Origin: Amoebophrya sp. A120 | Taxonomy: Eukaryota; Protista; Dinoflagellata | Reading direction: 5' to 3' | NCBI GenBank assembly: GCA_905178155.1 | Contig: CAJINV010000015.1 | Span: forward strand, 1,604,538 to 1,668,537 | DNA: 64,000 nucleotides | Shown: positions 1 to 29,700 of the stretch, piece after piece | Position numbering within the stretch: the first letter of the stretch is position 1 | Layout of the letters: each line of letters opens with the position of its first letter | Notes under the pieces: model-generated | What the model was told of the DNA's origin: nothing | The model's database searches: none | The model's input: the letters and a program-made list of their open reading frames with translations, nothing else | Program-made: the position numbers and the translations under genes

Positions 1-2364
1 GCACGACCCCAATCACTTCGAAATCTACAAGGGCCAGTATGAGAGTACACAACTCCCCCTCCCGCCCCTCATTTGTCATGCAGCACCCGACAACATCTAG
101 TCGCTGCCCTGTGGCACTGTTTCCATGACAAATTCCGGAAGCCCAAACAGTACTACATCAGGTATATCAATTTGTCATGCATATGCTCCACGTGTGCTGG
201 TGTTTGTATTGCTGTTCATGCCATACACATGAGGGGGACAGGGAGTTGTGCACTCTCATAGCCAGCCGCCGGGCTTGCCGCCCCCCTCCGGCGGCCCCCG
301 CCCGCAAACCGGCATGCACGCGGCCGGGGCGGTGGCAGGAGCTGGTGGAACCACTGCGGGCGGGCTTAAACCAGGCTTGCTCCCTGCGGGCATGTATCAA
401 CTGCAAAAATGTCTGGGTCTGGAAACTTGTAATGCTGCGTTGGGAATAGTGAATCAATGCTCTATAATGCGCAGGCAAGCATGAGAAATACAAATATCTG
501 CGCTTCTTTATGACAGGCAAAAGGGTCTGTTCTTGGACACGCATCACAAACTTTTTGGTCATGCCAGACAAGCATGACAAAATCTCAAATCTTCCAGACC
601 AAGACATTTTTGCATTTGATAGCATGGTCGCGGGACAACCGAATGATATCCGGAACGCGATCTCGGGCGCGGAGAAGGAACTGTCGACGAAGGTTTTGGC
701 CAGCATAATACCCGGCTTTGCCGGATCCACAGGGACTGCTGCAGGGACCAACGGGAAGACATTAAACGGGGGCGACCAGCAAGTGGCCCTAGACGAAGCG
801 GCACTGAATCCTCTGCTACTCGGGCAACAAATCCTGGTTAACGCAGCGGCGGTGGCGGCGACGAGTATAATAATGTGTTTTTGAGTGATCATCAACATCT
901 GTTTCTGTAGGAATGCTTGGTCAACATCCGCTCGTCTAGTTTGGGCTTAGGGTTTAGGGTCACCAGAAAAAGAATTTCAAATCACAAAGACACACATCAT
1001 CACCCCCACCAGGTACGGCCCAGTTGACCGGTGGGCACCTCGGGCTCGCGACCGCGCCCATGAAACTCACCGATTTGAACAACATCGACTGTGGCCAGCA
1101 GCGGTACGTTGGCATTGTGAAGTCGTTTGACAAGTTGAAGCAACTCGGCTACCTGCAGGCGGACGTTTTATCTAATCGCTTCATCGGTTACGACACCCCA
1201 CAGAAAATGGAAGTGGCGGTTATGAAAGAGGATTTCCAGCGGCTGAACCTGTACGCGGGCTGCATCGTTTCCTTCCAACTCGCGATATTCGCGCCGGACC
1301 ACAACGGCAGCTTCCGCGGCAAGGAAGAGCTGGAAGAAGCGGCGGCGGTTGGGAGTAGTGCTGGGTTGAAAAAACTGCCCTCGGTCATGGAGCTCGGCGG
1401 GGAGAAGAAACCAATCGTATAAATGAAGATGGATTCTCATTCTTTACTTACACGGCTTTTTTTTTTGATTTGGTGTCAAGCTCATGCACTGTATTTGAAC
1501 CGTTTGAAATTGTTGATGAGGTAAATCAATCACTACATTCGATTTCGAAAGACGTTGTGCAAGAAAAGCAGGAGTGCAAAATAGCATCAATTTCATCAAC
1601 CTCAACTTTTATTCCAGGCCGAACAAGTCGAGCTGGTCGACCCGATGTTGTTCGTCCCGGGCATGCCGAAGGTCGTAGCCAAGAAAAAAACGAAGAAGAA
1701 CCGGCAAGCCCTGGACGAACTGGAAAAAAACCTGCCAAACGCGATCGACTTGGCGCAGATTCTGAAAGACGTGGAAAACGTGGCGGAATTGGTTGAAAGC
1801 GAGCTCTTTGTCGTGGAAAAAGAAATTTTAACCCGGGACTTAAAGAACCTCGAGGAGCTGAAACGTGAAGAGCGAAGGTCGTTGAAGAGAATGAGGCGGG
1901 AACTGAAAGAAAAGGCGAGCAAAGATACAACTGGAGGCCGCGGCGGTGACAAGGACAAGAACAAAGGAGCTGCTGATGATGACGACAAGAGACGGAGTAG
2001 AAGCCGGTCCAGATCTAGGTCCAGATCCGACAGATCGAGGAGCAGTCGGAGTCGTAGCCGACGACGGCCGCGCAGTAAAGATCGACGGCGGAGGAACAAC
2101 AGTGGAAATAAACGAAGCGCCAGTCGCGACCGGCGCGGGGGTCCCCGGCCGCCAAGAAGAGACGGAACGAATTATTCGAGGAGTAGGAGTGCAAAACGAG
2201 ATGGGGATAGGAAGAACAGCAGGAGTAGAAGAGACCGCGACAACACGAGAGACCGGGGCGGGGGGAGAGGGAGAAGGGATAGTCGAGGCGGGGGTGGGAG
2301 CCGGAGGAGTCGAGGAAGAGGCAGGAGAAGGTCAAGGTCCAGATCGAAATCGAGAAGGAGGTAG
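1..2364 (+). CDS. 5'-partial cold-shock-domain-like protein with Arg/Ser-rich C-terminus (RNA-binding, SR-like)
   Basis: Spliced model: introners 38-260 and 395-621; GT-AG introns 865-1012 and 1417-1617. RYVGIVKSFDKLKQLGYL resembles the CSD N-terminal strands; RS-rich tail; stop at 2364. Confidence 0.65.
38..260. mobile_element. Introner family C (TIR TAT..GTGCACAACTCCCCC)
   Basis: TIR; TSD GCCAG. Confidence 0.85.
395..621. mobile_element. Introner family A (TIR TAT..TGCAAAAATGTCTGGGTCTGGAA)
   Basis: TIR; TSD GCATG. Confidence 0.9.
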
Positions 2365-2969
2365 GAACGAGAATTTGGCCTCGCTGTGAGGTAGAATCCT
2401 CGTCAATTGCTGCACCTGCTCCACATCATCGCTAATCGCAAGCTTGATGATTGAAACAAGGCCGTCAGTAACGTAAACGAGCGACATTGGTGTACCATAC
2501 TGTAGTCTTGTATTGCGAATGCACAAGCACAACGAAAAAATCATCACTCAACAAGCGCGGCGGCAATGAAGCGCACCACAACAATCTGAAAAACAGTGTT
2601 CGAACTTATGCGGGGGTGGAATTCAACAACAAGCAGAGAAGTTCGTGTACCAACGGAGAAGAAAGATCTACAACTGCACAAGGTCTACTTTTTCTGTTCC
2701 AGGATCGTTCACCAATCATGTGAAACAGGTTTAAGAAATAAAAGTGTTTCCGTGTCCAAAAAGCTTGTCAACAGTAAAAGCAGTTGTGTAGGTTCGACTG
2801 AAGTAGAAGCTGTACACCTCAGTTATGCTTTCTATGTGCCAACATTACAACTCCATCCAACAAGTATCTCGCCCCACAACAAAAAACAATCGATAGGTAT
2901 CGGCTCTGCTGTAGAAAAACAATTGTGGTCCTCCATATCTCTAACTCCAACTAAGCCTTGTGTTTGTCG

Positions 2970-5900
2970 ATGCTTTCAGTCAGTGCAAGTCGCAGAGCAT
3001 TGACTTCTGCTGGTGTTTTCTCTAGAAGTACTGTAGTGCGACAACCAGCAATACGATTGGTAAGGCAATTCTCCAAGAAAGATTCGTTATCCTTGCCTCG
3101 ATCATTTACGACAAATTTTTCCGCTAAAGTAAAAACTACACCGATTCATCGTAGAAACTACACGCTCAGCATTCCACCTCGTTATCACACATTATTAGCC
3201 TCACGATCCTTCCTTACCACTACCAGAGCCCCTGTTCTGACCAACAAGATGGCTCCCGCTGCACCCGAAGACGGCGCGGAAACCGCCGCTCTGCCGAGTT
3301 CTTTCACCGAGGAGGAAATGAAGGAGGATCCCTACCTCTACCTCGAAGAGGTGGAATCGGAAAAAGCGCTGAATTGGGTGATATGCATTGCAAATATGTT
3401 TGGGTCGGGAAGAATGCGTGTTCGTCATGCTTGTCTGGCATGATTCGAGAATCTGTGTTGCATAGACACGAAAAGGCCCTCTTACCTGTCATGCAAAAAC
3501 GAAGTTTGCCATGCGGAATACGTAAGTCATGGCAGCCAAAAAATTTGTCGTGCATAGCTGCGTATTGCAGTGCGTCTATCATTCACTTTTAGCATTACAA
3601 GTTTACAGACCCAGACATGTTTGCACTTGATAGGTGAAAGAGCAGAACAAAATCACTTTGGACAAGGTGGTTTCCATATCAAATGTAAAAATGTCTGGGT
3701 CTGGAAGAATGCAAGTTGTGATGCTGCATTTGGATTCCAAAAAAATCTGTATTGCATGAGCAGCAAAGGGAATGCAATTTTTTCTACGCGGAGAGGGAAT
3801 TTGTCATGCGGAATAGGCATCGCGAAGCCCTCAAAAAATCTGTGATGCTAGGGCATGCATCACAGACATCATGGCCAATGCAAAACATGCATGACAAGTC
3901 TCAGAATCTTCCAGACCCAGACATTTTTACATTTGATATTCCAAAACTGCTGCTGCTTCAAGCAACAAGTACACCAAAATCGTGATTGAGGACACGGAAG
4001 AATACAAGCGGTCCCTGCAGATCCTCGACTCCAAGGACAAAATAGCCCACGTGCGGAAAATTGGCTCGTATTACTACAACTTCTGGCGCGACGAGAAACA
4101 TGTGAAAGGGATCTGGCGGCGGACGAGTTTTTCTGAATACGGGGGCATATGGATTGCAAATATGTCTGGGTCTGGAAACTTGTGATGCTAAAATGTGCAT
4201 GATGAAAACACTTCCGAATGCAGTCCGGCACGACAACTTCCCAAAACGCTTTTTCATAGGCAATCCACATGAGAAACTGCGTTTTTGCATGACAAAAGAG
4301 GCTGCGACTTTTGTTAATTATGCAATACAGATTTTCTAGGTATGGAAAGCTAGCATTACAAGTTGCAACCTTCCAGACCCAGACATTTTTACAATCCATA
4401 GGGCAAGCAGGACCCGGAAAGCGTCGAGTGGGAAACGGTGCTGGATTTGGACGAGCTCAGCAAGAAGGAAGACAAGTCCTGGGTGTGGTCGGGGTACAGT
4501 TTGCTGCCGGAATTGGGGTTGATGGAACAAGATTCTGGTAGTACCACTGAAGTAGAGAATGCTGAGCAAAAACGTCCCCACCCCATAGTCAAGATGGAGA
4601 TTTTGCAACACAAACCTAGAAGTTTTGCGAGTCACGCATGACAAGTTGCAGGCTGTATTGTAGTGCAGTCTAGCAAGGATATCCGCATAACAAATCCATT
4701 TCCTCATCCTGTTTACAGCATTACAAGTTCCAAAACACGACAGAAAGTGCCTCACTTGGGGATGCGCATCACAAATGCCCCTGTACTTGCTAATCTGCAT
4801 GACAACTATAGAGTGGGGACGTTTTTGCTTAGGATATAGAGAAAAAAGACGTCATCGCGCTGCTCAAGCTCTCCCCCGGCGGGTCTGACGCGGTGGTTGT
4901 TCGGGAGTTTTCCCTGACAAAAAAGCAATTTTTGTCCGAAGACAAAACACGAGACAGCGCGTTCACGGTGGAAGAGAACAAAACGCAGATCTCCTACCTG
5001 GACCGCGACACGGTTTATCAACTGTAAAAATGTCTGGGTCTGGAAGAATACAACTTGTCATGCTAAATCTGAATGATGCAAAAATCTGTGTTGCGTGAGT
5101 ACCAAAAGCTGTCCACTGTTGACCAAGTTGAGAGGGAGTTTCTCATGCAGGAGAGGCATGATAGAGACCTCAGAGAATCTGTCATGCTAGGTCCTGCATT
5201 CCAGACCTCATGGGTCATGGAAAAGCTGCATGACAAGTCGCGCATTCTTCCAGACCCAGACATTTTTACACTTGATACGGTTTTTCTCGGCACGAAGTTT
5301 GAAAACGAGGAGTTCAACGGGCTAACCGACTCGTATAGCGTTCTCAACTGTTACATTCTCAACTGTTACATGGATTTGTGATGCAAGAATGGCAAAAGTC
5401 AAAGTAGGGAGGTTGCACCTGTAGCATTCCAAATTCCGCACAGATGTAGGTGCTGTTTAGCCTTTCCAAAATTTGTCATGCAGAGTAGCTTTATCTTGTG
5501 AATATTGATGTTTGTTTTGCATTACAAATCATGTAACAGTTGAGAATGTAACAGTTGAGAGCGCCATAACTCGGGATACCCCAGGATGGTGAAAATTTGG
5601 GCCCGGGGGAAAGAGAAAACGCAGTTAAAAACGATTTTCGACGGGAATAAACAGGATGTCGCGTCCGGCGGCCACGCGTATAGCTGGACACGGGTGGATG
5701 AGAAAACGCAGAAGAAAATCACGACCATCTACGATTCCATCGGCCAGTCGAAAACGTTTTACACCCGCGACCACTACATCAAAAATGGGTATTGGGAATT
5801 CGTCTACGACGAGAATAATTCTTCATCCAACGCAGATGTTACCCTTTCTTCCATCCGTAACACAGATTTGACCGATACATCTGTTTGCAAGAAATTCTAC

Positions 5901-8900
5901 CCGGACACGGAACCCGATAAGCTGATCCGATTGTCTGGCGTTCCCGACTCCGCGGACGTTTCTGTTTACCAGGACTACGCGGTGATTTCTCTGAGGAAAG
6001 ATTGGGGAGATAGTACAGACAAGGAAAACGCGGACTTCTTCTACCCGGGGGGATCGCTTCTTGTCGTACCGTTGAAAAAGTTGATCGATGTCGCCGGGGA
6101 GGTTTTGCCGACGTTCAAAGCGGACTCGCTTCCCGAAGTGACCGAGGAGAATGATTATTACAAAGAGAACTTTGTGAACAACGGGAAGACTTTACAGCTC
6201 CGGAAGATGTGCAAAATGCTGTTCAAGGGGGGAGTCGAGGGCGAAGCGCTGCAGGACACGTGCGAAACCAAGGACTACTTGATCATCCACAAGACCGTGA
6301 ATTTGAAGCCGGAGCTGGAATTTTGGAAGAAAGGAAATAATGACGGAACACCGAGCGGAGATTGGGTTTTGGACACCAGTGAAAAGACGAACTTTTTGAA
6401 GACCACAGGCGGAGCTGGGAAACATGACGCCGCGGACGAGAACATTTTTGAGTCGATTTCGCTCCGTTCGGTTGATTGGGACATGAGTTCGGATGATCTC
6501 TGGTTTACCTCCGAGTCCTTTTCCCGACCGGAACAGCTTTTTTACATTGACACCAAATCTACCACAACCTCCTATGGCGTTCTCAAACGTTACATTCTCA
6601 ACTGTTACATGGATTTGTAATGCAGGAACAGCAACAATCAAAGTGGCAAGACTGGAGCTTTCGCATTACAGACTTTCCACAGATTATCATGCTATTTAGC
6701 CCTTCGAAAATTTGTCATGCTAAGCACCTTGAGCAAGTGGAGGGCAATGGCAATTTTGCATGACAAATTCATGTAACAGTTGAGAATGTAACGTTTGAGA
6801 ACTCCATACCTCCACCGCGGAAAAGAAACTGTTGAAGTCCGCCCCGAAATTCTTCGACGACGATAAAGTCACGACGAGCCATATGGGAGTGTCAGAATCG
6901 AAATTGACAAAATCGGAAAACTTGTGATGCGCAAAATCGATGCCAGTTAGACCCACAGTTTGTAGTCGGCGCATGACAAATTCTCCTCGTCCTGGAAGCG
7001 AGTCTGTCATGCGGTTTAAGGCAAAAGAGCTGCCTTCTGTCATGCTAGTCAGCAGCCCAACACTTAACCCTTAAGTACCAGGACTACAATCCGCCTTCCT
7101 TGCATCCTCTGCAATAGAGTCGCTTTTTGCGTAGCATTTTGTGCATTACAGATCATTGCGATTTTGTCGATTTCGATCCTGACACTCCCATAAGCCAAAG
7201 ATGGGTCGTGTCGAAAGACGGCACCCGGGTGCCCTACTTTCTCGTCGGGAAAGACTTGACTAGTTCCTCCAAAAGCACCAAACCGCGCCCCACCTGTCTC
7301 TACGGCTATGGGGGGTTCGAGATATCCCTAACGCCCAGCTACATGGCGATCGCGGGTCAGCAGTGGATTGAGAAGGGAGGAATTTTTGCGCTGGCGAATA
7401 TCCGCGGTGGCGGGGAATTTGGGCCGCAGTGGCACCTATCCTCTGCAAAAGTATCGTACTCGTAGTAATTGTATGTAGTGAGGTCACCGAACGGTTCTAA
7501 CCGGGGAGTTTTTTTGCCACCTACCGTGAAAAACGACCGGCAGTTTTCAAGCGGCCGGAAGCGTTTTTTGACATAAAAGATTTTCAATTATCAAGCCTCC
7601 GGGGCTTTGAAGTCAAACAAGCCCGGTCGAAAACTATCGATTCGCACTGGATAAAACGACGCAGGGAAGCCGGCAAAAGGGGCGCCGTTCCGAGGCGCCC
7701 GCCGCCTTGGTTTCTGGCGATTTGGGGCGCCCAAAAAGGGGCGCGCAAAAAACGCGCCCAAAATCAGAACAGCGAAACAGCATGGCACGGCCGCGATTTC
7801 GGAGCATCTTGGGCGGCCGCGAAAGCGGCCGCCTTTTCGCCGGTTTTAGAGCCTGGGAAGCTTTGCAAAAAGCGCCGGCGTGAAAAATAAAAACGCGAAA
7901 AATAAAAAACGCCCCAGACGCGCAAACCCAATCCGCATGCTATGGGCCCGGTTTTTCTTCGCTTTTTGGGCGCCCCCCGTGGCACCCGGATCGGCCCCAT
8001 AGCATCGGGGCTGGCTTTCGGAAAGGAATTTGGGAAATGTGCCAAAATTTGTGATGTTTCCCAAGTGGCCGCCATACCGTGCGGCATAACGTTACTCACG
8101 GCGGTATGGCGAGCCCAGAAAAAACAAAGGCGTGGCCAAGGCGGCGGTCGGCAAAAAAACGCCCACGACCTCACTACCCCCGCCCCGGCGGCTATATTTG
8201 GTAAGTGCAGCCATGCATGACAAATGATCCAGCTTTCTACCCGAACACGCATGACAAATTCTTTTTCCGATAAATGTGTAATGCGATTTTCTCTTATCAT
8301 GATACTTTTGCAATGCATAGCACCAAGCCGCGTTGAAGGAAAACCGACCGAAGGCATACGAAGATTTCGAGGCGTGCGGAATGGACTTAATTTCCAGCGG
8401 AGTCACGACCAAGGAGATGCTCGGTACTTAGTTTCGTACGGCGCTCCGTTCCTGCTCGTGCAGTATCTCCTAGTTGTACACAGATCTCTTTTCATGTCAT
8501 GCAGTGTCAGCAACAGCATGGTAAGAAAAGCAAACAAATATGATGATGATGTCTTTCAGATGTATTACTCAATCGAACGGCCACCAACCCACCCCCAACG
8601 CCCTCACAGGTTGCATGGGCGGTTCCAACGGCGGGCTTTTAACCGGCAACATCTTCGTTCGCGGGGCCCAAAAACCCGAATTGATCTTCAGCGCCATTGT
8701 GTCCCAGTGCCCGCTACTCGACATGAAGCGGTTTCACAAACTCCTAGCCGGCGCGAGTTGGATGGCGGAGTACGGGAATCCGGACTTGGGCGAGTATGAG
8801 AAATTCATCAAAAATTTATGCACTGCAAAAGTATCGTAGTAGTATAAATCGCATGACAGATTTCCTCAGCATGAGAAATGGAATTTCTAATGCGCATCTG

Positions 8901-9866
8901 GCTCGAGAATGAAATTTGTAATGCATGAATGCGATTAGTACGAGTGCGATACTTTTGCACAGGATAAAACTACTCCCCGTACCAAATGATCGAAGCAATG
9001 GAAAAAGCAAAAACCCATTCCTATGCAAGAAAAAAACTGTGTGAGTGTAGGTGTCTTGGAGTTGTGACAGCATGACAAATTTGCTCTGCATGACAGAGAA
9101 AACCTGTCATGCAAACCGCAAAACAAACACATAACAAAAACAGGACTTCATGGCTGGCCAGGATGACAGGTGTATCTGTGTTGCATGCTTTGCATTGCAG
9201 ACTTGCAGCTACAGAGTTTTTTTCTTGGATAACTCCGCGATCCTCTTCACCACGTCCACCAAAGACGACCGCGTGCACCCGGGCCACGCGCGAAAGATGG
9301 TATCATTTGTAAAAACGTCCCCACCCCAGAGTTGTCATGCAACTGTGCAATGACAGCAACATTTGTAATGCGCAGCTCCATGAGAGGCATTTCCAATCGT
9401 GCTTTGGAATTTGTAATGCTGTACACAGGATGAGAAAGTGGCTTTCTAATGCGCCTTCCCTTGCCAACCAGCACTACATACACTGCAGAGGGAAGCTTGT
9501 CATGCACAGCTCCCAAAACTTGGTGACTTGTGTTGCTAGCTTTCCAACTTGACTATGGGGTGGGGACGTTTTTGCTTAGGATAGATGGTGAAACGGATCC
9601 AGGACATGCTGGAGCTCCCGAATGAAGGGGCCGCCGACATTGTCCGCTACTACGAAAACATCGAGGGCGGCCACGCGGGGGCGGCGGACAACAAGCAAAG
9701 AGCGTTCATGAAAACCCTGGAGTGGCTGTTTCTGTGGGAAAAACTTTCTGGCGGTCGTGGGGGAAAGGGCGGTAGTCGTAGTGTGTCGCCGTCGAAGAAG
9801 TCGCGCGGGTGCTGCGTGCCGGGGCCTAGTGACTCGTCTCCGCGGGAAGAAAACTCCTGCTTGTAA
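2970..9866 (+). CDS. Prolyl oligopeptidase (peptidase S9A), possible mitochondrial presequence
   Basis: After removing 12 introners and GT-AG intron 8424-8609: DPYLYLE, LSPGGSDAVVVREF, SGYPR, YGYGGF, NIRGGGEFG, GGSNGGLL (catalytic Ser), DDRVHPGH (Asp), EGGHAG (His). Confidence 0.95.
3382..3632. mobile_element. Introner family A
   Basis: TIR; TSD GGTGA. Confidence 0.9.
3677..3938. mobile_element. Introner family A
   Basis: TIR; TSD TTCCA; no GT/AG available at the junction. Confidence 0.9.
4148..4400. mobile_element. Introner family A
   Basis: TIR; TSD GGGCA. Confidence 0.9.
4558..4836. mobile_element. Introner family D (TIR ..AAAAACGTCCCCAC)
   Basis: TIR; TSD TAGAG; left end AA instead of TA. 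Confidence 0.85.
5016..5277. mobile_element. Introner family A
   Basis: TIR; TSD CGGTT. Confidence 0.9.
5334..5568. mobile_element. Introner family E (TIR ..CTCAACTGTTACATTCTCAACTGTTACA)
   Basis: TIR; TSD ACTCG. Confidence 0.9.
6573..6808. mobile_element. Introner family E
   Basis: TIR; TSD CCTCC. Confidence 0.9.
6882..7192. mobile_element. Introner family F (TIR TATGG..GTGTCAG..GAAAT.GACAAA)
   Basis: TIR; TSD AGCCA. Confidence 0.9.
7437..8319. mobile_element. Introner family B (TIR TAT..TGCAAAAGTATC) with nested insertion
   Basis: TIR; TSD GCACC; 883 bp. Confidence 0.85.
7475..8177. mobile_element. Nested MITE-like GC-rich insertion
   Basis: Inverted ends GTAGTGAGGTC / GACCTCACTAC; lacks the introner internal motif. 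Confidence 0.55.
8817..8966. mobile_element. Introner family B
   Basis: TIR; TSD AAATT/AAACT. Confidence 0.85.
9022..9231. mobile_element. Introner family H (TIR TAT..AAGAAAAAAACT)
   Basis: TIR; TSD ATTCC/ACTCC. Confidence 0.85.
9301..9583. mobile_element. Introner family D
   Basis: TIR; TSD GATGG. Confidence 0.9.
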
Positions 9867-10923
9867 ACAGCAGTTCTCGGAGGTGCGTGGTTGTACACGA
9901 GCTGATATCTTCTCCAATGTCGTGTCGGTTTAGGTCGAGACGACGACGCGAATAGGTTTTCTGTAGTTTCGAGAAATAAACGAATTTTTCATGATGCTAG
10001 CGAAGCATCTAGTTGAAACTTGTCGTCGATATGCGTCTTTTTCGCCTACATGCGGTTCTTTTTCTACGACCTGTCATGGAGTTTTTCAATTTCGAATCTA
10101 CAAGTGAGCGGTTGATGTTGATGTAAATGATTTTCAGCAGAATGATATCAAGGTGTCACGAGTGCGTCTACAGCAGGGTCGCCTTTTCTACAAGGTCGAG
10201 TATAATCAAAGTGCAGTGCTCGGCACAGGACGTATGTCTCATCTCCTCGTGTATTTGCTGAATGTACTCCAAAGATTTTTCGTCAGCTCAGCGGCAAAGT
10301 CGGTAGTAAAATATGCTCTCATGCTACGGATCAGAAAATAAAAGGAGAGAGAAAGACGAAGAAGAAAATCAAATATACGAAAAAGACAAGATCCACGAAA
10401 CAACAGAAATGATCATGTTCATCACACAAATCCCGGGTATGTGACCCGACGTCGGTAAAATTCAAACTCGATTGATCACGTCCTTTTTCCGGTCAAATTC
10501 AACTTATTTGCTGCTGATTATTACCGCCAGTGCACCATCTGTGACAAAAACCCGCTGCAATTATAAGCCTCAGAAAACGCCCCTAAAAGACCACAGCAGT
10601 GATTCTTTTTCTTGCACAAGATCAAAATTATAGAAATAAGTCAACTACTCTCTCTTGCAACTTTAAATTAAGCTGAAGCTGTGCGAGCTGCTAGATTTAG
10701 CACTATTTTGGTTCCTTTGCTACAAGAAGTAGAAGAAGTTCAAGTCCTTGCTATTCTCAATTAAATTGCTCGTTGCGCAAAGCATTTCCTGCAAAATTTC
10801 TTCCGCAAACTCCGTGTTTTTTTGTTGGACCTGCAATTGTAACAAGAGCCGACGGCTTTATTGCTGTAAATTCACACCAAATCAAAATCAAATAGATTTG
10901 CAGCTTTTTTGCTACACAAAATC

Positions 10924-13900
10924 ATGGCGCGTCGTCCTACTCTGTCCGTCCGAGGAGCACTCGGGGCCGCTACCGCAGCGCTTCTGCATCTCAGTTGTTG
11001 TGCCCCAGTCCCAGAGCACCCGGCACTACTTGTTGCAGCCGTCCAAGTAAAAAGGTCTTTCGACCGTCTCCTGGGGCCGCGACAGCCGCTAGACGCCACC
11101 TCGCACCGAAAGCTTGCCGCTGACAAGAAGAACGAGTTTGTTGTCACAGATCTGAAATCACGCCTCCTTGCGGAAGCGTGTTTTGGTAGCGAAGAGGCAG
11201 CAAAATTGCCGCACAAGTATGAGCCGGCGAAAAAAGACGAGCCATTGCTGGACTTGGTGAAAGGCGGGAAGATATGGATTGTAAAAATGTCTGGGTCTGG
11301 AAGAATGCAAGCTTTGTGATGCAGGTTTTCCATGACCCATGAGGTCTGGAATGCGAGGCCCAGCATCACAGATTCTTGGGGGTCTCTATCATGCCTTTCC
11401 TGCATGAGAGACTCCCTCTCAACTTGTTCAAAAGCGGACAGCTTTTGGTACTCACGCAACACAGATTTTTGCATCATTCAGATTTAGCATGACAAGTTCT
11501 AATCTTCCAGACCCAGACATTTTTGCATTTGATAGAAGAAAGACGGATCAAGTTGTACCACAGCATCTGCAAAGCCGCTTGTCTTGCGGGACAGCACCAA
11601 TGTGCGTGCGGGCAAGATGAACACATCGACTGGTGTCAACAACTCGTCCCCTTTTGGCTTCTCCACCGAACAAGCAGGTGCAACTTCTTCTACTTCTAGA
11701 GCCCCGTTTCTGCTGAACCAGACGCGCGACGCGGAAGAGTTCAGGACCCTGCGTCGAGACATTCACAAAAAGGAAAACCAGTTGGCAAATCCGGTGAAAG
11801 TCCTCGACCCGAGCACAAAACTCTCCGCGCTGGTGGTGGAGGACAGAAGTACTACAACTGCGGGTAGTAGTTCTTCATCTTCTAGAAGAAGTAGAAGTAC
11901 TAGTACAACAGCTGCAAAAGAAAACACCCTCGTCAAAAAGTACGGCCAGATTACGGACAGTTGCGCCTGCGTGCTGGCTATCACATGCAAATATGTCTGG
12001 GGCTGGGAACTTGTAATGCTGAATGGTCATGATTAAGTGCGGCTTTAAGTGCAGTGCAGCATGACAAAGTTTTCAGTCGCTTTCTCATGCGCAGCACGCA
12101 TTACAAAGACAAACTGCGACTTTGCGTGACGAACATGTGGCGCTTTTGCTGCTTGTGCAATACAGATTTTGAGGGCATGCGAAACACGCAATACAGGCTC
12201 AACCTGTTCGGACCCAGACACATTTGCAATGCATACTGGCCCAAGCCCTCCAGGACGAGATTCAGGTGGTGAATTTGGCGCGCGCAACGGACCTAAAGAC
12301 CTACCGCATGAGCAGCTCAAACAACACCTTTGCGCGCGAGGGTGGGGCCCAGGGTGAGAGCTTCTTCGGGGGACACGACCTCGAGCACGAGGTACTTTAC
12401 ACCGCGGTTTGCTTGCCTAAGTCCGATGCGACGATCGCGCAAGACCACAAGAGTGGGAAGCCAAGTGCTGATAGTGATGAAGAACTTCCAGACTTTGTCC
12501 ACGCTATGCCTTACGTGGCCGCCGGAGCGACGTACTTCAAAATAAACCCCCGAACGGGGCTGATTGCCGAGGACTGCGTGCCGACGCACGGTGTCGAAAT
12601 CTGGCAGTTGGAATCCGAGGATGGCAGTAGACCACGGCTTATCAAATGCAAAAAGGTCTGGGTCTGGAAGGATTCGAATTTGTGATGCGAAGTCTACATC
12701 ATGATAAAATCTGTCATGCATCATGGCTAGCAATAAAAAGCCTCACTTCTTGTTTCCGAGGGAGAGGATTTGTCATGCGGATTAGGCATTGGAATAAGTG
12801 CTTAAAATCTGTGATGCTAGAGCTTGCATGCCAGACGATCTGGGTCAGGCAAAAACTGCATGACAGATCTCGCATTCTTCCACACCCAGACATTTTTGCA
12901 ATCCATACGGCTGCTGCGACGATTGCCCTCTTCCGGGGGGATATCGCAAGGAAAAATCCCCCCTCCCCATATTGAAGAGGTAGGTTTTCGAAAATTTGTG
13001 TTGCTGATTTGAGGTCACAAATTACGTTTGTGTTGCAAGAAGACAAGGGCAACAGCTTCCGTCCCATTATGGAGGCGGATTGTCATGCTGTTGAGCCAAC
13101 ATCACGGACCCTTGTCATGCTAAACGCCTAAGTCAAAACCTCTCCGCTCAGGCTTGATATGGGTCTGCAGTCCTCTCCAGCAATACAGATGCGATCTGTG
13201 TACTCAAATACAGCAACACAGATTCCGCTTGCGATATGGGGAGGGGGGATTTTTCCTCACAATAGGGGATGGTCCGGTGTTTGGACTGGCACGAGTCTAT
13301 GCTGACCGCCGGCCGAGAGGACGGCACGGTCTCCGTCCACGACATCCGAGACCGGGATTCGTTGATGACCATCATCCCCATCTGCAAGCCTCTCGAAGGG
13401 GGGAAAACCAAGATGGAAACAGGGTTTGACAAGAAGCTGCACCCGGAAAACGACCCGATCACCCGCTTTGGCGGGCGCAAGCCCGCGTTTACCGATCACC
13501 GCGACCCGGAGGCCTTTCACCGCCGTGACTCGACCGGCCGGCAACCGCCGGTCCCGCACAACGCGGGTCTCCTGGCAGTCGGCACCGAGTTATGAAAGTG
13601 CACAATTCCCCCCCCCCCCTCATTTGTATAGAATGAACGGCAATACAAGCATCAGCAAGAATGCCGGTTTTGCATGACAAATTTCCACTGGATCTTAGTG
13701 CTATTCGGGCTACCAGAACTTGTCATGCAAACAGTGCCAAGAAGCAAAGGGTGGACTGGGTATTTCGCATGACAAATGAGGGGGAGGGGGAGTTGTGCAA
13801 TGTCATACCAGTCCGGGAAGGTTTGCGTTTTGGACATGCGGAACGTGATAGACGTGACCAAAAACCCCGAGGTCTACTCGACGCAGAGATATGCTGAGGA

Positions 13901-16337
13901 AAAACGTGGCCCACACCCCATAGTCAAGCTGGGAAATCTGCAAGACAAATCAACAAGCTTTTGCTGTTGCGCATGACAATTTTGGGGACGTAGTGTAGTC
14001 CTGTTTAGCTAGTGTGACCGCATCACAAATCTAGCATATCATGCTGATCGGAGCATTACAAATTTCAAAACACGACTAGGAACTGCTTCTCGTGGGGCTC
14101 CGCATGAGAAACATTTTGAGCATGCAGATTTGCATAACAGCTCTTGGCTGGGGACGTTTTTACGCAGGATAAGAGACTCGAGGGATTTACGTCTCCCGTC
14201 ACCGCGCTCACCTGGGGCGCCAACGAGAACGGCACGACCCTGGCCGCGGGAGATTTGAACGGTATGAAATGCAAAAATGTCTGGGTCTGGAAAGTTCCCA
14301 GGTTTGTCATGCATATTTTGCATAACCCATGAAGCCTGTAATGCATGACCTAGCATCACAGATTTTGAAAGGGCCTTCTGATGCGTATTCCGCATGAGAA
14401 ACGCACACTCCACGGAGCACAAACTGAACTCCTCTTGCTGGCCATGCAATACAGTTTTTTTTATACCTTCCAAAGACAGCATCACAAGTTGCAACCTTGC
14501 AGACCCAGACATTTTTGCATTTCATAAGCGGGCGGGTGAAGCTACTGCATCCGTTGGGTAAATCGAGTTGGTCGTTTTCCGACAGCGCTCCGGACAGTGG
14601 TTCTTGCACTGCTACCAATGCTATCAAATGCAAAATAAATGTCTCGGTCTGGAAGATTGCAAGGTTTGTCATGCTAGTCTGGCATGACTCTGAACTCTGC
14701 ATTGCGTGGCCGCGAAGAGCTCCTCCTCCCTGTCATGCAAAAACGGAGTTTATCATGCGGAATACGCAACTCAGAACCATGAAAAAAACTTGTCATGCTT
14801 GGCAGCGCATTACAGTGAGCACACTATTCCCTTCCTTGCATCACAAGTTTCCAGACCCAGACATTCTTGCAATCCATAAATGCCTCGACTCGCGCGGAAG
14901 AGGTAATTGGTACGGGAATTGGGGAAAACAAGCCGATCACCGGCCTGCAATTTTGCAACTTTCAGGACGGCGCCACGCGGAACGGGCACTATGAACTGCA
15001 AAAGTATCGTACTCGTATATATAAATGCATTACAAATTTCCGGAACATGAGAATATAAAATTTGTAATGCGGACTTGCCTCAAGAAAAAAATTAAAATTT
15101 GTAATGCAAGACTTGCATTTATACGAGTCACCACTTTTGCAATGCATAGGCTCCTGGCGGTGGCGACGCTGGGCGGCGGCACCCGAATTCACGACTTGGA
15201 AAAGGCTGCTGTTGATGCTGGAACAACTGCTCGCGCAAGAAGAGCTAGTAGTAGTACCTCCAGTACGGGTCCTCGTCCTTCAGGAACAACTACGCCGGCC
15301 TCATCAAGTCAAGAAAATACAACAACTCGTGGAAGCAGTAGCGGAAATCCGCGAAGTTCCTATCCAGTATCCTACACTTTAGGTGAGTCCACCAAGGAGA
15401 TACTCGACCAAAAGGGCGACGGTTCCCATGACAAGTCTCACGATTGGGACAAGCGACAGGTCTTCGGCCTGCAGAAGATTGTCGGGACGGATGCTGCCGA
15501 CGTATCCTCCCCCCAGCCCTACCTGGTCGCGCTGGCGCACGACGTATCAAATGCAAAAATGTCTGGGTCTGGAAGATTGCAACTTGTCATGCTGTCTTCG
15601 GATTCGAAAAAAATCTGTAATGCATGACCGGCGAGAGGAGTCCAGTTTTTGCCACGGCGAGAGGCCATTTCTCATGCGGAACAGGCATCAGGAAGCCCTC
15701 TCAAAGTCTGTGATGCTAGACCATGCATCACAGACCGCATGAGTCATGGAAAACCTGCATGACACTCTTCCAGACCCAGACACTTTTACATTTGATACGA
15801 CGGCATTGACGACCCGACGCAGTTGCGTTCGTACGGCAATCCCTACGTAGCGGACCACATTTATGGATGTGTCAGGATTGAAATCGTCAAAGTTGAAATA
15901 GTTAGTCATGCATAAACTCGATACCAGTTGGAAGCCCAATTTTCAAGCGGCGCATGACAAATTTCGGCACCGTCTAAATTCAGTTTGTCATGCTGTTTAG
16001 GGACAGAAGGCGTCTTTTGTCATGCTACTTTGTTTAGCAGCTCTACCGCAGACCCCAAACAGGCTGACAGTCGGCCTCACTTGCCATCCCTGCAAGAGAG
16101 GCACTTCATGCCTTGCAATTTATGCATGAGAAATTTTTTCAACTTTGTCGATTTCAATCCTGACACATCCATAACATTCATGAGTCGCTGGGCCTGTACC
16201 CTACCACCCCCACGCGGCCGCGGAAACGGTCAAGGGTCACTGGATCTGGTGCTCGGGGTAGTGCTAGCAGGAGCGCCTTTACACCATCCATGCGTACTAA
16301 TTATAGTACTCTGCCCCGCCGGGGGCTTAGGCTTTAG
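10924..16337 (+). CDS. WD40-repeat protein
   Basis: 11 introners removed. WD-like blades VRCLDWHESMLTAGREDGTVSVHDIR, VTALTWG..TLAAGDL.GRVKL, ITGLQF..LLAVATLGGGTRIHDL; hydrophobic N-terminus. Confidence 0.7.
11273..11534. mobile_element. Introner family A
   Basis: TSD GAAGA; reverse-complement relative of 5016-5277. Confidence 0.9.
11979..12235. mobile_element. Introner family A
   Basis: TIR; TSD CTGGC. Confidence 0.85.
12640..12907. mobile_element. Introner family A
   Basis: TIR; TSD CGGCT. Confidence 0.9.
12942..13264. mobile_element. Introner family G (TIR ..AAAAATCCCCCTCCCCATAT)
   Basis: TIR; TSD GGGGA. Confidence 0.9.
13591..13807. mobile_element. Introner family C
   Basis: TIR; TSD CGAGT/CCAGT. 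Confidence 0.85.
13890..14171. mobile_element. Introner family D
   Basis: TIR; TSD AGAGA. Confidence 0.85.
14263..14526. mobile_element. Introner family A
   Basis: TIR; TSD AACGG/AGCGG. Confidence 0.85.
14622..14878. mobile_element. Introner family A
   Basis: TIR; TSD AATGC. Confidence 0.9.
14990..15148. mobile_element. Introner family B
   Basis: TIR; TSD GGCAC/GGCTC. Confidence 0.85.
15545..15797. mobile_element. Introner family A
   Basis: TIR; TSD CGACG. Confidence 0.9.
15862..16173. mobile_element. Introner family F
   Basis: TIR; TSD ACATT. Confidence 0.9.
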
Positions 16338-23700: not shown

Positions 23701-26700
23701 AAAAACACGCGCCCCATCTGAGCCCGCGGAGGAAATAAAAAAAGAAAAAGCCCCACCGCCAAGAATCTGCCGACTTGCTTCGCGAAATCGCTTGCGAAAA
23801 GTTCGCAGAAACCCAGCCGAAACGACCCCCCGAAAAAAGTCGCGCGCGATTTTGGCAAGCGGGCGGGGCAATCTCGAAAAGAAATCGGGCGGGGGCGTGT
23901 GAATATTCTCGCACACCCTTGGCGGGCGTTCTCGAATAACCCGAAGGGGGGCCCGAATAATCGGGCCGAATCTTCTCGAATAGCCAAGAGGGGCAGCCGA
24001 ATACTGACTCAGGGCGAGCGTTCTCGAGCCAATATTCAAGGGGGAAGGCCGAACAACCAGGGGGGGCGAACGCTCGCCAATATTCAAGATGGAAGGAAGG
24101 CCGAATATGCAGGGAGAATAAACGGGCTCAAATATTCAAGAGGGGACGGCGAATATTCAGGGAGAACGCTCGCCAATATTCGAGAAGGGGCTCCGAATAT
24201 TCAGACGATGAATATTCAGGGAGAGGGAGCATCTCGCCGCATCTCTTCAAGAAGGAGCGCCGAATAGTCAGGGAGATAACCCCGCGCCCCCTCCCCAATA
24301 CCCAAGAAGGCGCGCCGAATATTCTGGGCGAGCGTTCTCGAATATTCAAGGGGGGCGCGCCGAATATTCACGGAGGGCATTCCCGAGTATTCAAGGGGGG
24401 GCGCCGATCACTTGGGGCGAGTGCTCTCGACTATTCCGGGGGGAGTGCCGAATATTCAGGAAGAACGCGCCCGAATATCCAAAGTAAGAGGCCCGCCGAA
24501 TATCCAGGGCGGATGTCCCTTCTCCAATATTCAAGAAGGCACGCCGAATATTCCGGGGGAATGTTCTCGAATATTCAAGGGGGCGTGCCGAATATTCAGG
24601 GGGGGCGTTCCTTCTCGAATATTCTTTCAAGGAGAGGCGCCGGCCGAATATTCAGGGCGAATATTCCCGAATATTCAAGGGGGCGCGCCGAATATTCCGG
24701 GAGAATATTCCCGAATATTGGCGGGGGAGCTGCGAAGATTCGGGGGGGATACTCTCGAAAACCCCGGGAGAACATTCTCGAGGATACATACGCAAGGGGG
24801 AATGCCGATCGCGTAAATATTCAGGGGCGGTATTCTCGAATATCCGCAGAGGCTTGCCGAATATTCAGGAAGGCAGCAGATTCAATGCTCGAATATTTAA
24901 GAAAGGCGGGGCGCCGAGTATTCCGGGCGAATGTTCTCGAACATTCAAGGGGGGGCGCCGAACATTCAGGGCGAGCGTTCGTTCTCGAATACCTGGGGGC
25001 GTGGGCCGAATATTCAGGGAAGCTGTTCCCGAATATTTCAGGGGAAGCGCCGAATATTCAGGGAGGGGCCTTCCGAGTACCCAAGGGGGAGCGCCGAATA
25101 TTCAGGGAGAATATTCCCCAATATTCCGAAGCATTTTCCGAAATCCAGGGGGAACCAATGCCACAGATCGGGGGGGATGCTCCCGAACCAATATCCAAGG
25201 GGGGGCGCCGAACATTCAAAAAGGGGCGCCGAATATTCAGGGCGGGTGGGTGTTCGCGAATATCCGAGGGGGAGTGCCGAATATTCAGGGTGAAGGCTTC
25301 TCCAATGTGATGGCGACAGGTGAAGACGACAGGTGGACGCGACAGGTGGGAGCGACAGGCGGGGCCGACAGGTGGCGGCGACAGGTGAGGGCGACAGGTA
25401 AAGGCGACAGGTAAAGGCGACAGGTGAGGCGACACGCGAAGCGACAGGCGAAGCGACAGGCGAAACGGCAGGCGAAGCGACAGGCGAAACGACAGGCGAA
25501 ACGACAGGCGACGACGACAGGCCAAAAGCCGCAGGCCTTCATGCGGTAGGCTCCGCACCAGCAGCAGCAACAAAAAAAATTAAAGAGCTAGCTACCTCCG
25601 CGAGCAAAATTGCAGCGCTTTTATTTTTTTTCACGTGCATAAAATAATAATAATTCCGATTTTTGGTTTTGTACATGAATAAAAATAAAAGCGCTCCTGC
25701 CTTTTTCTTCTCGGAGGTAAGTGAGTCGCTGCGTTTTTTGCTGCTGCTGCTGGTGCGGAACCGCGTGGGATGTTGCCACCTTTGGCCTGTCCCCGGCGCC
25801 TGTCGTTTCGCCTCTCCTTTCGCCTGTCGTTTCGCCTCTCCTTTCGCCCCATTACGAACAAACTCTTTTTTTTCATGGCAGGCGCGTTTTAATTTTCAAA
25901 AATAAATACTGGCTTACTTCTGAAATAAAGCAAATGCTATCTATTTTTGAAAAATAAAAAGCAACTGAGAAGCGCATGCTTTGGAATTTCTTCACTCCGC
26001 CTCAGGTCAATTCATTCACGTGCGTGAGGTAGTTACTTTTTTCGGATAAGAGCAAAGTAATTACTTTTTGCACGTGAATAAAATCGAAAGTAAAAGAATT
26101 ACTTTTTTCCTGTCGAAAGTCAGTAACTCTTTTATTTGTTTTTTGCTTTGAATGTTCGCGCTGCTTGTGCAAAACCGCATGAGAAGTTGCCATTTTTGGC
26201 CTGTCGTCGTCGCCTGTCGTTTCGCCTCTCCTTTTGCCTGTCGTTTCGCCTCTCCTTTCGCCTGTCGTTTCGCCTGTCGTTTCACCTCTCGCCGTCACCT
26301 GTCGCGGTCACCTGTCGCCGTCACCTCTCGTCTGGGGTATGTGATTACAGAACCCGGAAGTCAAGCAATATAAATATTAATCTCATATTCTACCTAATCC
26401 AGCATGACAAATTGCATTTTTCTGGTTTGAAAAATTTGTGATGCAACTCGTACTACACTAGTACGGTACTTTTGCAAATTGCAATGCATATCGCGGAACA
26501 AAAAGCCGCGGCAGTTCTCGTGGCGAAGCTGCACGAGGAACGGAGTATCAAATGCAAATCTGTCTGGGTCTGGAAGAACGCAAGACTTGTCATGCTTGTC
26601 TGGCATGACTGAAGAGTTTGTGATGCCTGTCCAAGAAGAGACCCTTTTGCTTGTCATGCAAAAACGCACTTTGTCATGCGGAAGGCGCAAGAACGTTAAC

Positions 26701-29700
26701 CCTTGCACATATTTCTCATGCTTAGCTGTGCATTACAAAACATTCACAATTCACAACCCAGCATTGCAACTTTCCAGACATACTTATTTGCATTTGATAC
26801 GGAAGCGCCTTCTGCAACAGTTTGTCGACTTGCGCCTTGCGCTGGTGGAGTTGCAGCCGGCGGGTGCAGATCATGGTGGTGCAACTGAAGAAAACAAGAA
26901 CCGAAAGGAACAGGAGAGGCAGACACAGAGTACGAGCGGAGGTGGTAAAAATCAAACACCTGGTCCTGATCAACACAATAATGCCGTCTATGAAACTGAA
27001 GCTGAACAACAAGATGTTGAGAATTACGAAAACGATGCCGCCAGGAGGAAGCGGCTCGCGGATTTTCTGTCGCCGCAGGTGCTGACAGGTTATCCTGAGT
27101 AAAAACATCCCCACCCCAGAGTCCAGATGGAGACTCTGCAACACAAACCTTGAAGTTTTGGGAGTAACGCATGACAAGTTGCAGGCTGTACTGTAGTGCA
27201 GCGTAGCAAGGGAAGCCGCATCCGTCTCCTTATCCTGTTTACAGCATTACAAGTTCCAAAACACAATGGGAAATGCCTCTCATTGGGATGCGCATTACGA
27301 ATGGCGCTCTTGTGCTTGCAAGTCTGCATGACAACTCTGGGGTCGCATTTTGTTTAGCATGACAACTCTGGGGTGGGGATGTTTTTACATAGGATACCGG
27401 TTTCTCTCTCTTCACCTTCGCCTACGTCGGACTGCATCTCGTTTTCCCTCGGCTCGGCCGGCGATTCGGCACCGTTCTGGCGGCTTTGCACCTCAGTCAC
27501 GGTCTGGTCGTGCGAGAGCAAGTGTTTGGAAAACCGATTTTAAAAACCCTCTGCGGACCGAAGCTAGAGCGGTGTAACTTCCACTACCGGATGCAGGACA
27601 GAATCGTCGAGATGCTTTTACTATGAACTGCAAAAATATCGTACTCGTATAAATGCATTACAAATTTCCTCAGAGTCAGAATGAGAATTAGAATTTGCAA
27701 TGCGGATTTCCCTTAAGAAAAAAATTTGTCATGCAACAATTGCATTTATAAGACTACGATACTTTTGCAGTTCATATTTACTCCTCGGGGATCGAGCAGG
27801 AGGAAGGAACAGTAAAGATAATGCTCCACCCTCCCCAGCAGCCATGGAGCTCCGTGAGGAGATCTTGAAATCGGTTGTGTCGAAAATTGTTCGCGTTTGC
27901 AAACTATGAAATGTAAAAGTGTCTGGGTCTGGAAGAATGCATGTTTGTCATGCTTGTCTGGCATGACTCTTAGATCTGTCATGCACGTTACCCAAAAGCT
28001 CTATTTCTCTGCGATGCAGAAACGCAGTTTGTCATGCAGAATAGGCAACACCTAGAAGCTCAGAAACTTGTCATGCTGAGCCAGCACTTGCAGCCTCATC
28101 ATGAGACGCCACCCAGCATCACAAGTTTCCAGACCCAGACATTTTTACTTTTGATACAAACAACTGCAGGAGAAAGTGCCGCGTCTGACTTTCGACTCGC
28201 TGGTGCAGCAATTTCCGGAACCGAGGAAAATGACAATTACGAGCAGAATTATCAAAGTGAAAAATCCCCCTCCCCACATCGAAAAGGTATGTTTCTGAAA
28301 ATTTGTGTTGCTGATTTGAGGTCACAAATCACGTCTGTCTTGCAAGAAAACAGGCGCAGAGGCTTCCGCACCACTATGGAAGCGATTTGGCATGCTGTTG
28401 CGCCTAGGGGGCACCCGTTTGCAATGCTAAGCAACTAGACCTATACGCCCGTAACTAGGCCGAGGATCTGACTGCGATGCCTTACTGCAAGACAGATCCG
28501 ATTTGTGTACCCAAATCCTGCATCACAGATTTCCACTTCGATATGGGGAGGGGGGATTTTTCCTTTTGATAAGAATAGAGTCAACATCTTCTGAACAAGC
28601 ACCTGCTCCTGTGTTAATGTTGGACGAGGAGGAACAAGGAGGTGCAAGCAGTTCGAATTTTAGTTACAGCAGCACTAGCACAGGCGCAAGAAGAACATCC
28701 TCGGCGATTCCAGATACAGATAAGGACTACAATTTTGACGACAAGAGCTGGAACTGCTATGCTTACCTCACTTCCCTCCTGGATTTCCTGTCTTTTTCCG
28801 CCGAAGCAGCCCAGTACGTCCTCTTTGATGCGATCGTGTGTTCCTGCGAATGGCTCACCCAGTCCCTGGTCTTCCGTGTGTTTTTCCACGACCTCTACAT
28901 TGCGGTATGGCTTTTCGTATGCACTGCAAAAGTATCGTGCTCGTATAAATGCATTACAAATTGTCTCAGCATGAGAAATAGAATTTGTGACGCAGATTTA
29001 CCTTAAGAAAAAGATTAGTAATGCATGATTGCAATACCAATACGAGTGCGATACTTTTTCACAGGATACTTCGACCCAGTGGGCTTACCATGGCTGGCGG
29101 AGGAAGTTGTCGTTTTTTTCATATCCACCGGCGCAGAAGTTCTTGTTCCTTCTGCTGTTGTAAATAGCTGTAGACAGCACGAACGGCGAAGTAATACTCG
29201 TACGATGATTCTTGCAAACGTCAAATATGACAATGTTCTGATGTGTTTTATTCCCAACTGTGTCCAGACGTGCTCTACTTCTACATCAATGCAGGTCCAT
29301 CAACCTTTTGCGGAACTTTCCATACCTCGAGGATTTCTACGACATCTATCAAAGTGAAAAAAGCCCCCACCCCATATTCGGAAACGGAAGATGCGCGAAT
29401 TTGTGATGCTGTATTTGAGTACACAAGTCGCCTTGTATTGCTAGAAGGCCAAGAGACGAAGCTGCGGCCTAAGTTGCAGGTAATCTGTCATGCTGTTTCC
29501 CACTTCCAGTTGCCTCCTGTCATCCTGGAGCTGCAAAGCTTTCCCACGCTAGACAGCACTACAGTCCGCATCTTTTGCCTTCTAGCATCACAAAGCTGAT
29601 TTGTGGCCACAAATCTGCATCACAGATTTCTGTTTTGATATGTGGAGGAGGCATTTTTCATTGTAATAACATCAGCGCTATCTTCGAACACTACGCGGGG

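What the first reader, a model, noticed from the sequence alone, without database searches (positions are those of the whole stretch)
5016..11534. Same introner occurs in both orientations within + strand genes, so the excision signal appears strand-symmetric
Seen: 5016-5277 contains ATCTGAATGATGCAAAAATCTGTGTTGCGTGAGTACCAAAAGCTGTCC, and 11273-11534 contains its reverse complement. Other inverted pairs are 27905-28156 / 56943-57194, 395-621 / 52214-52475 and 13591-13807 / 55482-55703. All host genes are on +. Established: spliceosomal donor, branch point and acceptor signals are directional. Inference: recognition relies on the symmetric TIR hairpin and TSD, or removal happens at the DNA level as with ciliate IESs.
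Basis: partly seen in the sequence, partly recalled or inferred. Interest (0 to 1): 0.88.

Follow-up and report, generated by a model that had tools for sequence, protein, structure and literature searches.

The report
Reversible transposon introns, fixed cut register
In a parasitic dinoflagellate, known hairpin-ended transposon introns sit in genes either way round and are removed from the RNA in both orientations without normal splice signals, likely at one fixed offset from their ends that gives a handle on their unknown removal machinery.

Summary
Observation confirmed. 5016-5277 and 11273-11534 are 90% identical as reverse complements, two of 64 catalogued elements built as 5-nt direct repeat + TAT...ATA inverted ends. 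They match the introners described for Amoebophrya A120 (PMC7789003); window exons match source-named A120 proteins at 99-100%. The family of 5016 lies 9:7 by orientation, and RNA skips copies of both orientations to the base. DNA-level excision is disfavoured: a DNA-like run keeps the elements at single-copy depth. Inverted ends give either orientation the same directional 5' and 3' motifs, and two-way introners are already known (Aureococcus, Polarella). Not found in print: six sites where the repeat copies differ all fit one register, a cut 1 nt before TAT and 4 nt after ATA; one of them ignores an available GC-AG. That puts TAT where this window's canonical introns have (G)TAY. Machinery unproven: U1-less spliceosome about 50%, nuclease plus ligase about 30%. 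No G-U bias supports selection on the RNA stem. The scan noted similar hairpin-bounded introns in other genomes.

The parts
5016..5277 (+). Introner, family 0, reference orientation; flanking 5-nt direct repeat at 5011-5015 and 5278-5282; in the prolyl oligopeptidase gene
11273..11534 (-). Introner, family 0, opposite orientation, 90% identical to 5016-5277; direct repeat at 11268-11272 and 11535-11539; host gene on +
   Evidence: RNA contig joint 11267->11535, 267 nt skipped; fold z -7.4
3250..9860 (+). Host gene: prolyl oligopeptidase (S9), 12 element-type introns and one GT-AG intron (8424-8609)
   Evidence: Pfam PF02897/PF00326 hits on exons; tblastn to P0006 and P0007
10924..16334 (+). 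Host gene with a weak WD40 match; 11 elements, all absent from RNA
   Evidence: 852-codon ORF; 10 joints listed, the 11th (11979) by exact length accounting, 1002 = 1002 nt
12640..12907 (+). Family 0, same orientation as 5016
   Evidence: 323 joined reads in X10
15545..15797 (+). Family 0, same orientation as 5016
   Evidence: 875 joined reads in X10
14263..14526 (-). Family 0, same orientation as 11273; repeat copies differ at base 2 and RNA keeps the upstream copy
   Evidence: 966 joined reads, 14259->14529
13591..13807 (-). Family 6; repeat copies differ at base 2 and RNA keeps the upstream copy
   Evidence: 284 joined reads, 13587->13810
14990..15148 (+). Family 2; repeat copies differ at base 4 and RNA keeps the upstream copy; an available GC..AG register is not used
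   Evidence: 1048 joined reads, 14988->15153
26546..26799 (-). Family 1; repeat copies differ at base 5; database proteins carry the downstream copy (Lys)
   Evidence: P0004 and relative P0005
45711..45973 (-). Family 0 in the Sec1 gene; copies differ at base 3; database protein carries the upstream copy (Ala)
   Evidence: P0001
46008..46228 (-). Family 3 in the Sec1 gene; copies differ at base 5; database protein carries the downstream copy (Thr); orthologs have Pro, with the same second codon base
   Evidence: P0001-P0003
27905..28156 (-). Family 1, inverted partner of 56943-57194 (91.7%)
   Evidence: absent from protein P0004
56943..57194 (+). Family 1, inverted partner of 27905-28156
   Evidence: frame restoration only
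55482..55703 (+). Family 6, inverted partner of 13591-13807 (87%)
   Evidence: frame restoration only
395..621 (.). Family 1, inverted relative to 52214-52475 (70%); host strand unsettled
52214..52475 (-). Family 1, partner of 395-621
   Evidence: frame restoration only

Best explanation
These are non-coding, MITE-like elements with a 5-nt direct repeat and TAT...ATA inverted ends that lie in either orientation and are missing from the RNA in both, likely removed from pre-mRNA at one fixed register by a divergent, U1-independent spliceosome that is predicted to use the end-to-end stem. Shown: anatomy, both orientations, exact removal from RNA, retention in a DNA-like run, no GT-AG. Partly shown (six sites): the intron starts 1 nt before TAT and ends 4 nt after ATA, so one repeat copy is left and the host codons are restored. 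Orientation is neutral because a flipped element presents the same two ends. Inferred: insertion by a DNA transposase making 5-bp duplications; the stem replaces U1/U2AF in bringing the ends together; N-TAT is read like the canonical G-TAY with +1 relaxed; the 3' site is set by distance from ATA. Confidence by step: RNA-level removal 0.93, one fixed register 0.75, spliceosome-derived chemistry 0.5.
For: RNA: X10 raw reads join across 9 elements with 284-1048 reads each, and depth is 0 at the 9 listed positions inside 4 of them. Family 0 is removed both ways: 12640 and 15545 (+), 14263 (-) in reads, 11273 (-) in contig X3. Register: upstream copy kept at repeat base 2 (13591, 14263) and base 4 (14990) in reads, and at base 3 (45711) in P0001; downstream copy kept at base 5 in P0001 (46008) and P0004 (26546, predicted before retrieval), each backed by a relative. 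No orientation bias in family 0: 9/7 in the window, 12/11 in 23 strand-called copies elsewhere. 5' and reverse-complemented 3' arms do not differ at any of positions 1-20 in 144 sense-oriented copies (lowest p 0.13). 6 of 6 canonical introns located start GTA[CT]. PMC7789003 section 10 reports nearly all spliceosomal proteins and the snRNAs other than U1 in A120.
Against: No branch-point enrichment at the sense 3' end (CTRAC 6 vs 10 antisense, of 144), and no preference for G at +1 (41 of 144) or AG at the end (11 of 144). The TAT/GTAY match may be coincidence, since TAT is simply the transposon end. No sign of selection on the RNA stem: G-U 139 vs A-C 130, and the sense fold is more stable in 71 of 144. 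Three of the six register sites come from annotated proteins, not reads. No single site fixes the register; under independent random registers the six outcomes have probability about 0.05. A mirror model (register tied to element orientation) keeps about a 1 in 8 chance because no family has informative sites in both orientations. Only 15 of 2331 joints were displayed, so minor registers are not excluded. Reads were laid on 1-18200 only.
Confidence: 0.5

Rival explanations
1. Spliceosome-independent RNA route: a structure-specific nuclease cuts at the base of the stem (1 nt on the 5' side, 4 nt on the 3' side) and an RNA ligase joins the exons, as proposed for euglenozoan non-canonical introns.
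For: No dinucleotide or branch-point signal in any register; an available GC-AG is ignored at 14990; families with unrelated arms share only TAT, an A-tract and pairing; ends pair in 63 of 64 folds. PMC12621601 (Discussion read) proposes RNase III- or tRNA-splicing-like routes and cites circular products in Euglena.
Against: The 3-nt 3' overhang implied by the register is not the 2-nt overhang of RNase III (recalled). TA at arm positions 1-2 is nearly invariant (63 and 64 of 64) and falls on canonical +2/+3. No G-U bias. No such enzyme was looked for.
Confidence: 0.3
2. Purely sequence-directed splicing with the hairpin incidental: the machinery reads N-TAT and T-tract-ATA-N4 separately; complementarity is only the legacy of transposition.
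For: No strand-specific selection on stem pairs; arm positions 4 and 7 pair in only 37 and 31 of 64; an 8.2-kb element is joined across in P0004.
Against: The shared motif is very short and would occur often in exons; predicted stems are very stable (z -10.3 and -7.4), so single mismatches may be neutral.
Confidence: 0.12
3. Polymerase slippage between the direct repeats: either reverse transcriptase in library making (artefact) or RNA polymerase II skipping a DNA hairpin.
For: Direct repeats around a strong hairpin are the classic substrate for such artefacts (general knowledge; papers seen only as a search listing). Forward skipping would keep the upstream copy, as observed.
Against: Reverse transcriptase would be expected to keep the downstream copy up to the stem, the opposite of bases 2-4 here (inference). 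Conserved proteins need the removal: 57 of 64 elements have stops in all three frames. At 14990 the joint ends on a mismatched base yet has 1048 reads. Element sequence from other loci is present in RNA runs.
Confidence: 0.05
4. DNA-level elimination, as for ciliate IESs: the elements are cut from the expressed genome.
For: TA-containing ends with short direct repeats resemble IES ends (recalled). Only one DNA-like run was laid; it may be the source of the assembly, contigs drop rare variants, and some of its joints were not counted.
Against: X1 has flat depth of 43.5-55.4 in element-free bins, and single-copy contigs of depth 38-48 bridge 7 exon/element boundaries by 31 nt or more on each side, including ends of 13890 and 14990, which RNA removes. 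It has 0 contigs for all 10 listed RNA joints. The register runs with the transcript at six sites. PMC7789003 treats these as RNA-seq-supported introns in DNA assemblies.
Confidence: 0.03

Closest known systems
Introner elements among the non-canonical introns of Amoebophrya sp. A120 (Farhat et al. 2021, PMC7789003; sections 10, 11, 12, 16, 25, passages and supplement passages read)
   Same: Inverted repeat starting TAT, seven variable bases, then AAA; 3-5 nt direct repeat (5 bp in Fig. S19 legend); about 240 nt; non-canonical ends; hairpin proposed to join exon ends; MITE likeness. Window exons match source-named A120 proteins at 99-100%.
   Different: Nothing in kind. The text I read does not report orientation of copies (its 4 main-text and 3 supplement uses of 'orientation' that were displayed concern genes) and calls the splice position variable or unknown; here the position is narrowed to one register. 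Figures could not be seen.
Two-way introners of Aureococcus anophagefferens and Polarella glacialis (10.1101/2020.10.14.339549, passages read)
   Same: Transposon-derived introns with target duplication that work in either orientation.
   Different: They use GT/GC/GA and AG sites taken from the element end or the duplication; here 3 of 64 could, and one tested site does not.
Non-canonical introns of Fritillaria borealis (via review PMC11282704 and 10.1101/2025.08.15.670264, passages read)
   Same: MITE-derived introns with inverted ends and duplications; splice sites correspond to the inverted repeats.
   Different: There dominated by AG-AC/AG-AT ends after an exonic TAC; here the end dinucleotides are free.
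Non-conventional introns of euglenids and diplonemids (PMC11282704 passages; PMC12621601 Discussion)
   Same: End-to-end pairing, repeats at the junctions, cut offset from the stem, unknown machinery.
   Different: Euglenid junctions follow a pyrimidine|purine rule and are excised as circles; no such junction rule here, and the product is untested.
Ciliate internal eliminated sequences (recalled)
   Same: Short transposon-derived inserts in coding DNA, precisely removed leaving one repeat.
   Different: Those are removed from DNA; these stay in the DNA-like run and are missing from RNA.

Membership tests
Amoebophrya A120-type introner | Inverted repeat joining the two intron ends, starting TAT + 7 nt + AAA | tested here: met
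   T/A/T at positions 1-3 in 63/64/60 of 64; A at 11-13 in 52/54/60
Amoebophrya A120-type introner | 3-5 nt direct repeat over the exon/intron boundaries | tested here: met
   46 of 64 perfect and 17 with one mismatch in the window; 194 of 253 perfect in a scan that did not require it
Amoebophrya A120-type introner | Repeated in families and removed from RNA at non-canonical ends | tested here: met
Canonical U2-type intron | GT/GC..AG ends | tested here: not met
   possible in 3 of 64 in any register; not used at 14990
Canonical U2-type intron | Branch-point motif near the sense 3' end | tested here: not met
   three recalled patterns: 6 vs 10, 82 vs 83, 12 vs 15, sense vs antisense, of 144
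Canonical U2-type intron | Lariat intermediate, snRNP dependence | not testable with these tools
   needs lariat sequencing or inhibition
Aureococcus/Polarella-type two-way introner | Creates introns in either orientation | tested here: met
Aureococcus/Polarella-type two-way introner | Canonical-type splice sites from element end and target duplication | tested here: not met
MITE (non-autonomous DNA transposon) | Inverted ends, target duplication, short and non-coding, many copies | tested here: met
   about 510 database stretches estimated to match one end motif
MITE (non-autonomous DNA transposon) | Cognate transposase and empty DNA sites | not tested
   no whole genome held; orthologs were compared only as proteins
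Ciliate IES | Absent from the expressed DNA | tested here: not met
   one DNA-like run, contigs only
Euglenid non-conventional intron | Pyrimidine|purine junction rule | tested here: not met
   base composition of repeat positions 4 and 5 near uniform apart from fewer T at 4
Euglenid non-conventional intron | Excised as full-length circles | not testable with these tools
   needs RNase R-treated RNA

The most novel reading that the evidence does not exclude
Tens of thousands of nuclear introns in this parasite are cut by a ruler mechanism keyed to the base of a transposon hairpin (1 nt before, 4 nt after), with no donor, acceptor or branch sequence, by a nuclease-ligase or a rebuilt spliceosome, so that any TAT...ATA transposon becomes a perfect intron at any site and in either orientation.
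Probability: 0.3. Interest if true: 0.85.

Novelty: already known. Interest (0 to 1): 0.42.

Why it matters
The elements and the hairpin idea are published, but how they are spliced is open. Two details seen here were not found in print by searches: removal of one family in both orientations, and a single offset of the cut from the stem. A fixed offset turns ambiguous boundaries into defined ones, lets gene models be corrected at imperfect repeats, predicts the ends of the excised RNA, and separates spliceosome from nuclease-ligase models. It would also explain why these transposons could invade genes at any sequence. The library lacks most subscription papers, so prior report cannot be excluded.

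Tried and rejected
No whole genome was held. The run search listed no holder on record as RNA among indexed runs; run X11 gave almost no on-target reads (339 of 356 only partly laid). Idea that imperfect repeats are offset by an extra closing base pair: suggestive in the window, lost in the larger set (63 of 268 perfect vs 22 of 73 imperfect). G-U versus A-C test for selection on the RNA stem: null. Directional k-mers in 144 sense-oriented copies: best 4-mer p 3.6e-4 among 120, borderline and confounded by family relatedness. Test of the mirror model with database loci: strand and frame were confident for only 80 of 277 copies; 8 of 123 flanking exons had Pfam hits; the SNF2 site lay at a variable residue and the others were synonymous or at base 1; the planned look-up for L042 (family 0, + orientation, base 4) never ran because the queue was full. 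The mirror model therefore stays open at about 1 in 8. Literature on the transposon superfamily (listing only) gave no assignment. No earlier notes on this genome.
Full report
1. Observation. A self-comparison and a scan for TAT...ATA inverted ends with a flanking direct repeat (64 hits, 0 in each of 2 block shuffles) show a dense element population. After dropping 4 hits and adding 4 by eye, the working set is 64 elements of 150-367 nt; two long ones (7437-8319, 18265-26490) were found later. The repeat is 5 nt and abuts the ends: 46 of 64 perfect, 17 with one mismatch, 1 with four. Clustering on interiors gave no inconsistent orientation edge. Seven of the 10 families with two or more window members occur both ways, and the family of 5016 lies 9:7.

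2. Host genes. Removing each element plus one repeat opens + strand frames of 793, 852 and 1409 codons across 8, 11 and 16 elements. Exons hit prolyl oligopeptidase, Sec1 and fatty-acid hydroxylase in Pfam (10 of 19 exons with a hit at E 0.01 or better). The excised sequence aligns without a gap across the 5016 site to ortholog P0006. Intron lengths fall evenly in the three frames and 57 of 64 elements have stops in all three, so removal is needed. The host strand of elements 38 and 395 is unsettled.

3. Identity. Window exons match proteins that their source names Amoebophrya sp. A120 at 99% and 100%. The anatomy matches the A120 introners of PMC7789003 (sections 10-12, 16, 25 read; supplement passages; figures not seen). 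That paper proposes hairpin-joined exon ends and MITE likeness and reports U1 missing. They hold 253 elements, 194 with a perfect repeat although the scan did not ask for one.

4. RNA. Four runs from three studies were laid on 1-18200 (15 of 2331 joints shown). Raw RNA reads of X10 skip element plus 5 nt at 12640, 12942, 13591, 13890, 14263, 14622, 14990, 15545 and 15862 (323, 297, 284, 727, 966, 769, 1048, 875, 841 reads). X10 depth is 0 at the 9 listed positions inside four of these. One contig of X3 (RNA by guess and by pattern) has the same joints plus 11267->11535, and its length accounts exactly for 11979 too. Family 0 is thus removed in both orientations (12640, 15545 versus 14263, 11273), as is family 1 (11979 versus 14622). 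X10 did not cover the prolyl oligopeptidase gene. Elements beyond 18200 are untested by reads.

5. DNA. X1 is not on record as DNA but has flat depth (43.5-55.4) over element-free bins. Its single-copy contigs (depth 38-48) bridge 7 exon/element boundaries by 31 nt or more on both sides; at 5016 and 11273 they reach only 25 and 24 nt in. It has no contig for any of the 10 RNA joints. Caveats: some joints were not counted, contigs drop rare variants, and X1 may be the source of the assembly. Bulk DNA excision is disfavoured, rare excision is not excluded.

6. Register. Where the repeat copies differ, the product shows the cut. Reads keep the upstream base at position 2 (13591, 14263) and position 4 (14990). 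Protein P0001 keeps the upstream base at position 3 (45711) and the downstream base at position 5 (46008, where two orthologs share that codon base). I then predicted Lys at 26546, and P0004 and its relative P0005 have Lys. All six fit a cut after four repeat bases: the intron begins 1 nt before TAT and ends 4 nt after ATA. The database gene models were built from transcript alignments, so these three sites are second-hand. Random registers would give this pattern about 5% of the time, and a register tied to element orientation keeps about 1 in 8, because my attempts to obtain a decisive site failed. At 14990 a GC..AG register exists and is not used.

7. Signals. GT/GC..AG is possible for 3 of 64 elements. 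In 144 sense-oriented copies (64 window, 80 strand-called loci) the two arms do not differ in composition, branch-point patterns are not enriched at the 3' end, and G at +1 or AG at the end is at chance level. All 6 canonical introns located in the window begin GTA[CT], so the register places TAT at +2 to +4 as in those introns. Both named copies fold end to end (z -10.3 and -7.4), as do 63 of 64 in either orientation. Against selection on the RNA stem: G-U 139 versus A-C 130. A 9-nt internal motif is about 30-fold enriched in elements (179 in 16.1 kb against 18 in 47.9 kb) and flips with the element in some families, so it is more likely a transposase-binding repeat (inference) than a directional splice signal.

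8. Reading. What is unusual is the lack of dinucleotide signals, which is published. The likely added fact is a fixed, asymmetric offset that follows the transcript. I favour a U1-independent spliceosome-derived reaction (0.5) over nuclease plus ligase (0.3, as proposed in PMC12621601), sequence-only recognition (0.12), polymerase slippage (0.05) and DNA elimination (0.03). Nothing here tests the chemistry.

9. Novelty. The elements are already known. Orientation independence and the register were not found in searches or in passages of PMC12130899, PMC9860276 and PMC11282704; most subscription journals and bioRxiv supplements are outside this library. Two unchecked scan notes describe similar hairpin-bounded introns in other genomes. 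Interest 0.42.

Noticed in passing
window 18265-26490: An 8226-nt element with family-2-like ends and a perfect 5-nt repeat encloses satellite arrays (about 174-nt, 21-44-nt and 13-nt units). Protein P0004 joins across it in frame, so the ends appear to define an intron over 8 kb; no reads were laid across it.
   Followed up: partly
window 7437-8319: 883-nt element with family-2-like ends and a roughly 700-nt nested insert in the prolyl oligopeptidase gene; perfect 5-nt repeat.
   Followed up: partly
window 50460-50773: Only 1 of 5 repeat bases match, yet removing element plus 5 nt keeps the frame; if spliced, the direct repeat is dispensable. Frame evidence only.
   Followed up: partly
all elements: 9-nt internal motif shared by families with unrelated ends, often about 31 nt apart, about 30-fold enriched over flanking DNA; a few copies lie in canonical introns.
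   Followed up: partly
arm positions 4-7 of families 0-2: The two arms of one element often carry different variants (position 4 pairs in 37 of 64, position 7 in 31 of 64), suggesting end swapping between copies.
   Followed up: no
17 single-mismatch repeats: 10 of 17 mismatches fall on synonymous third codon positions.
   Followed up: no
window 37609-41022: 1138-codon + ORF with no element, with a kinase-like C-terminal half by eye; not searched.
   Followed up: no
window 958-2361: Two + ORFs upstream of the prolyl oligopeptidase gene match the N-terminal part of P0007, which also contains the peptidase: conserved neighbourhood or a fused gene model in that source.
   Followed up: no
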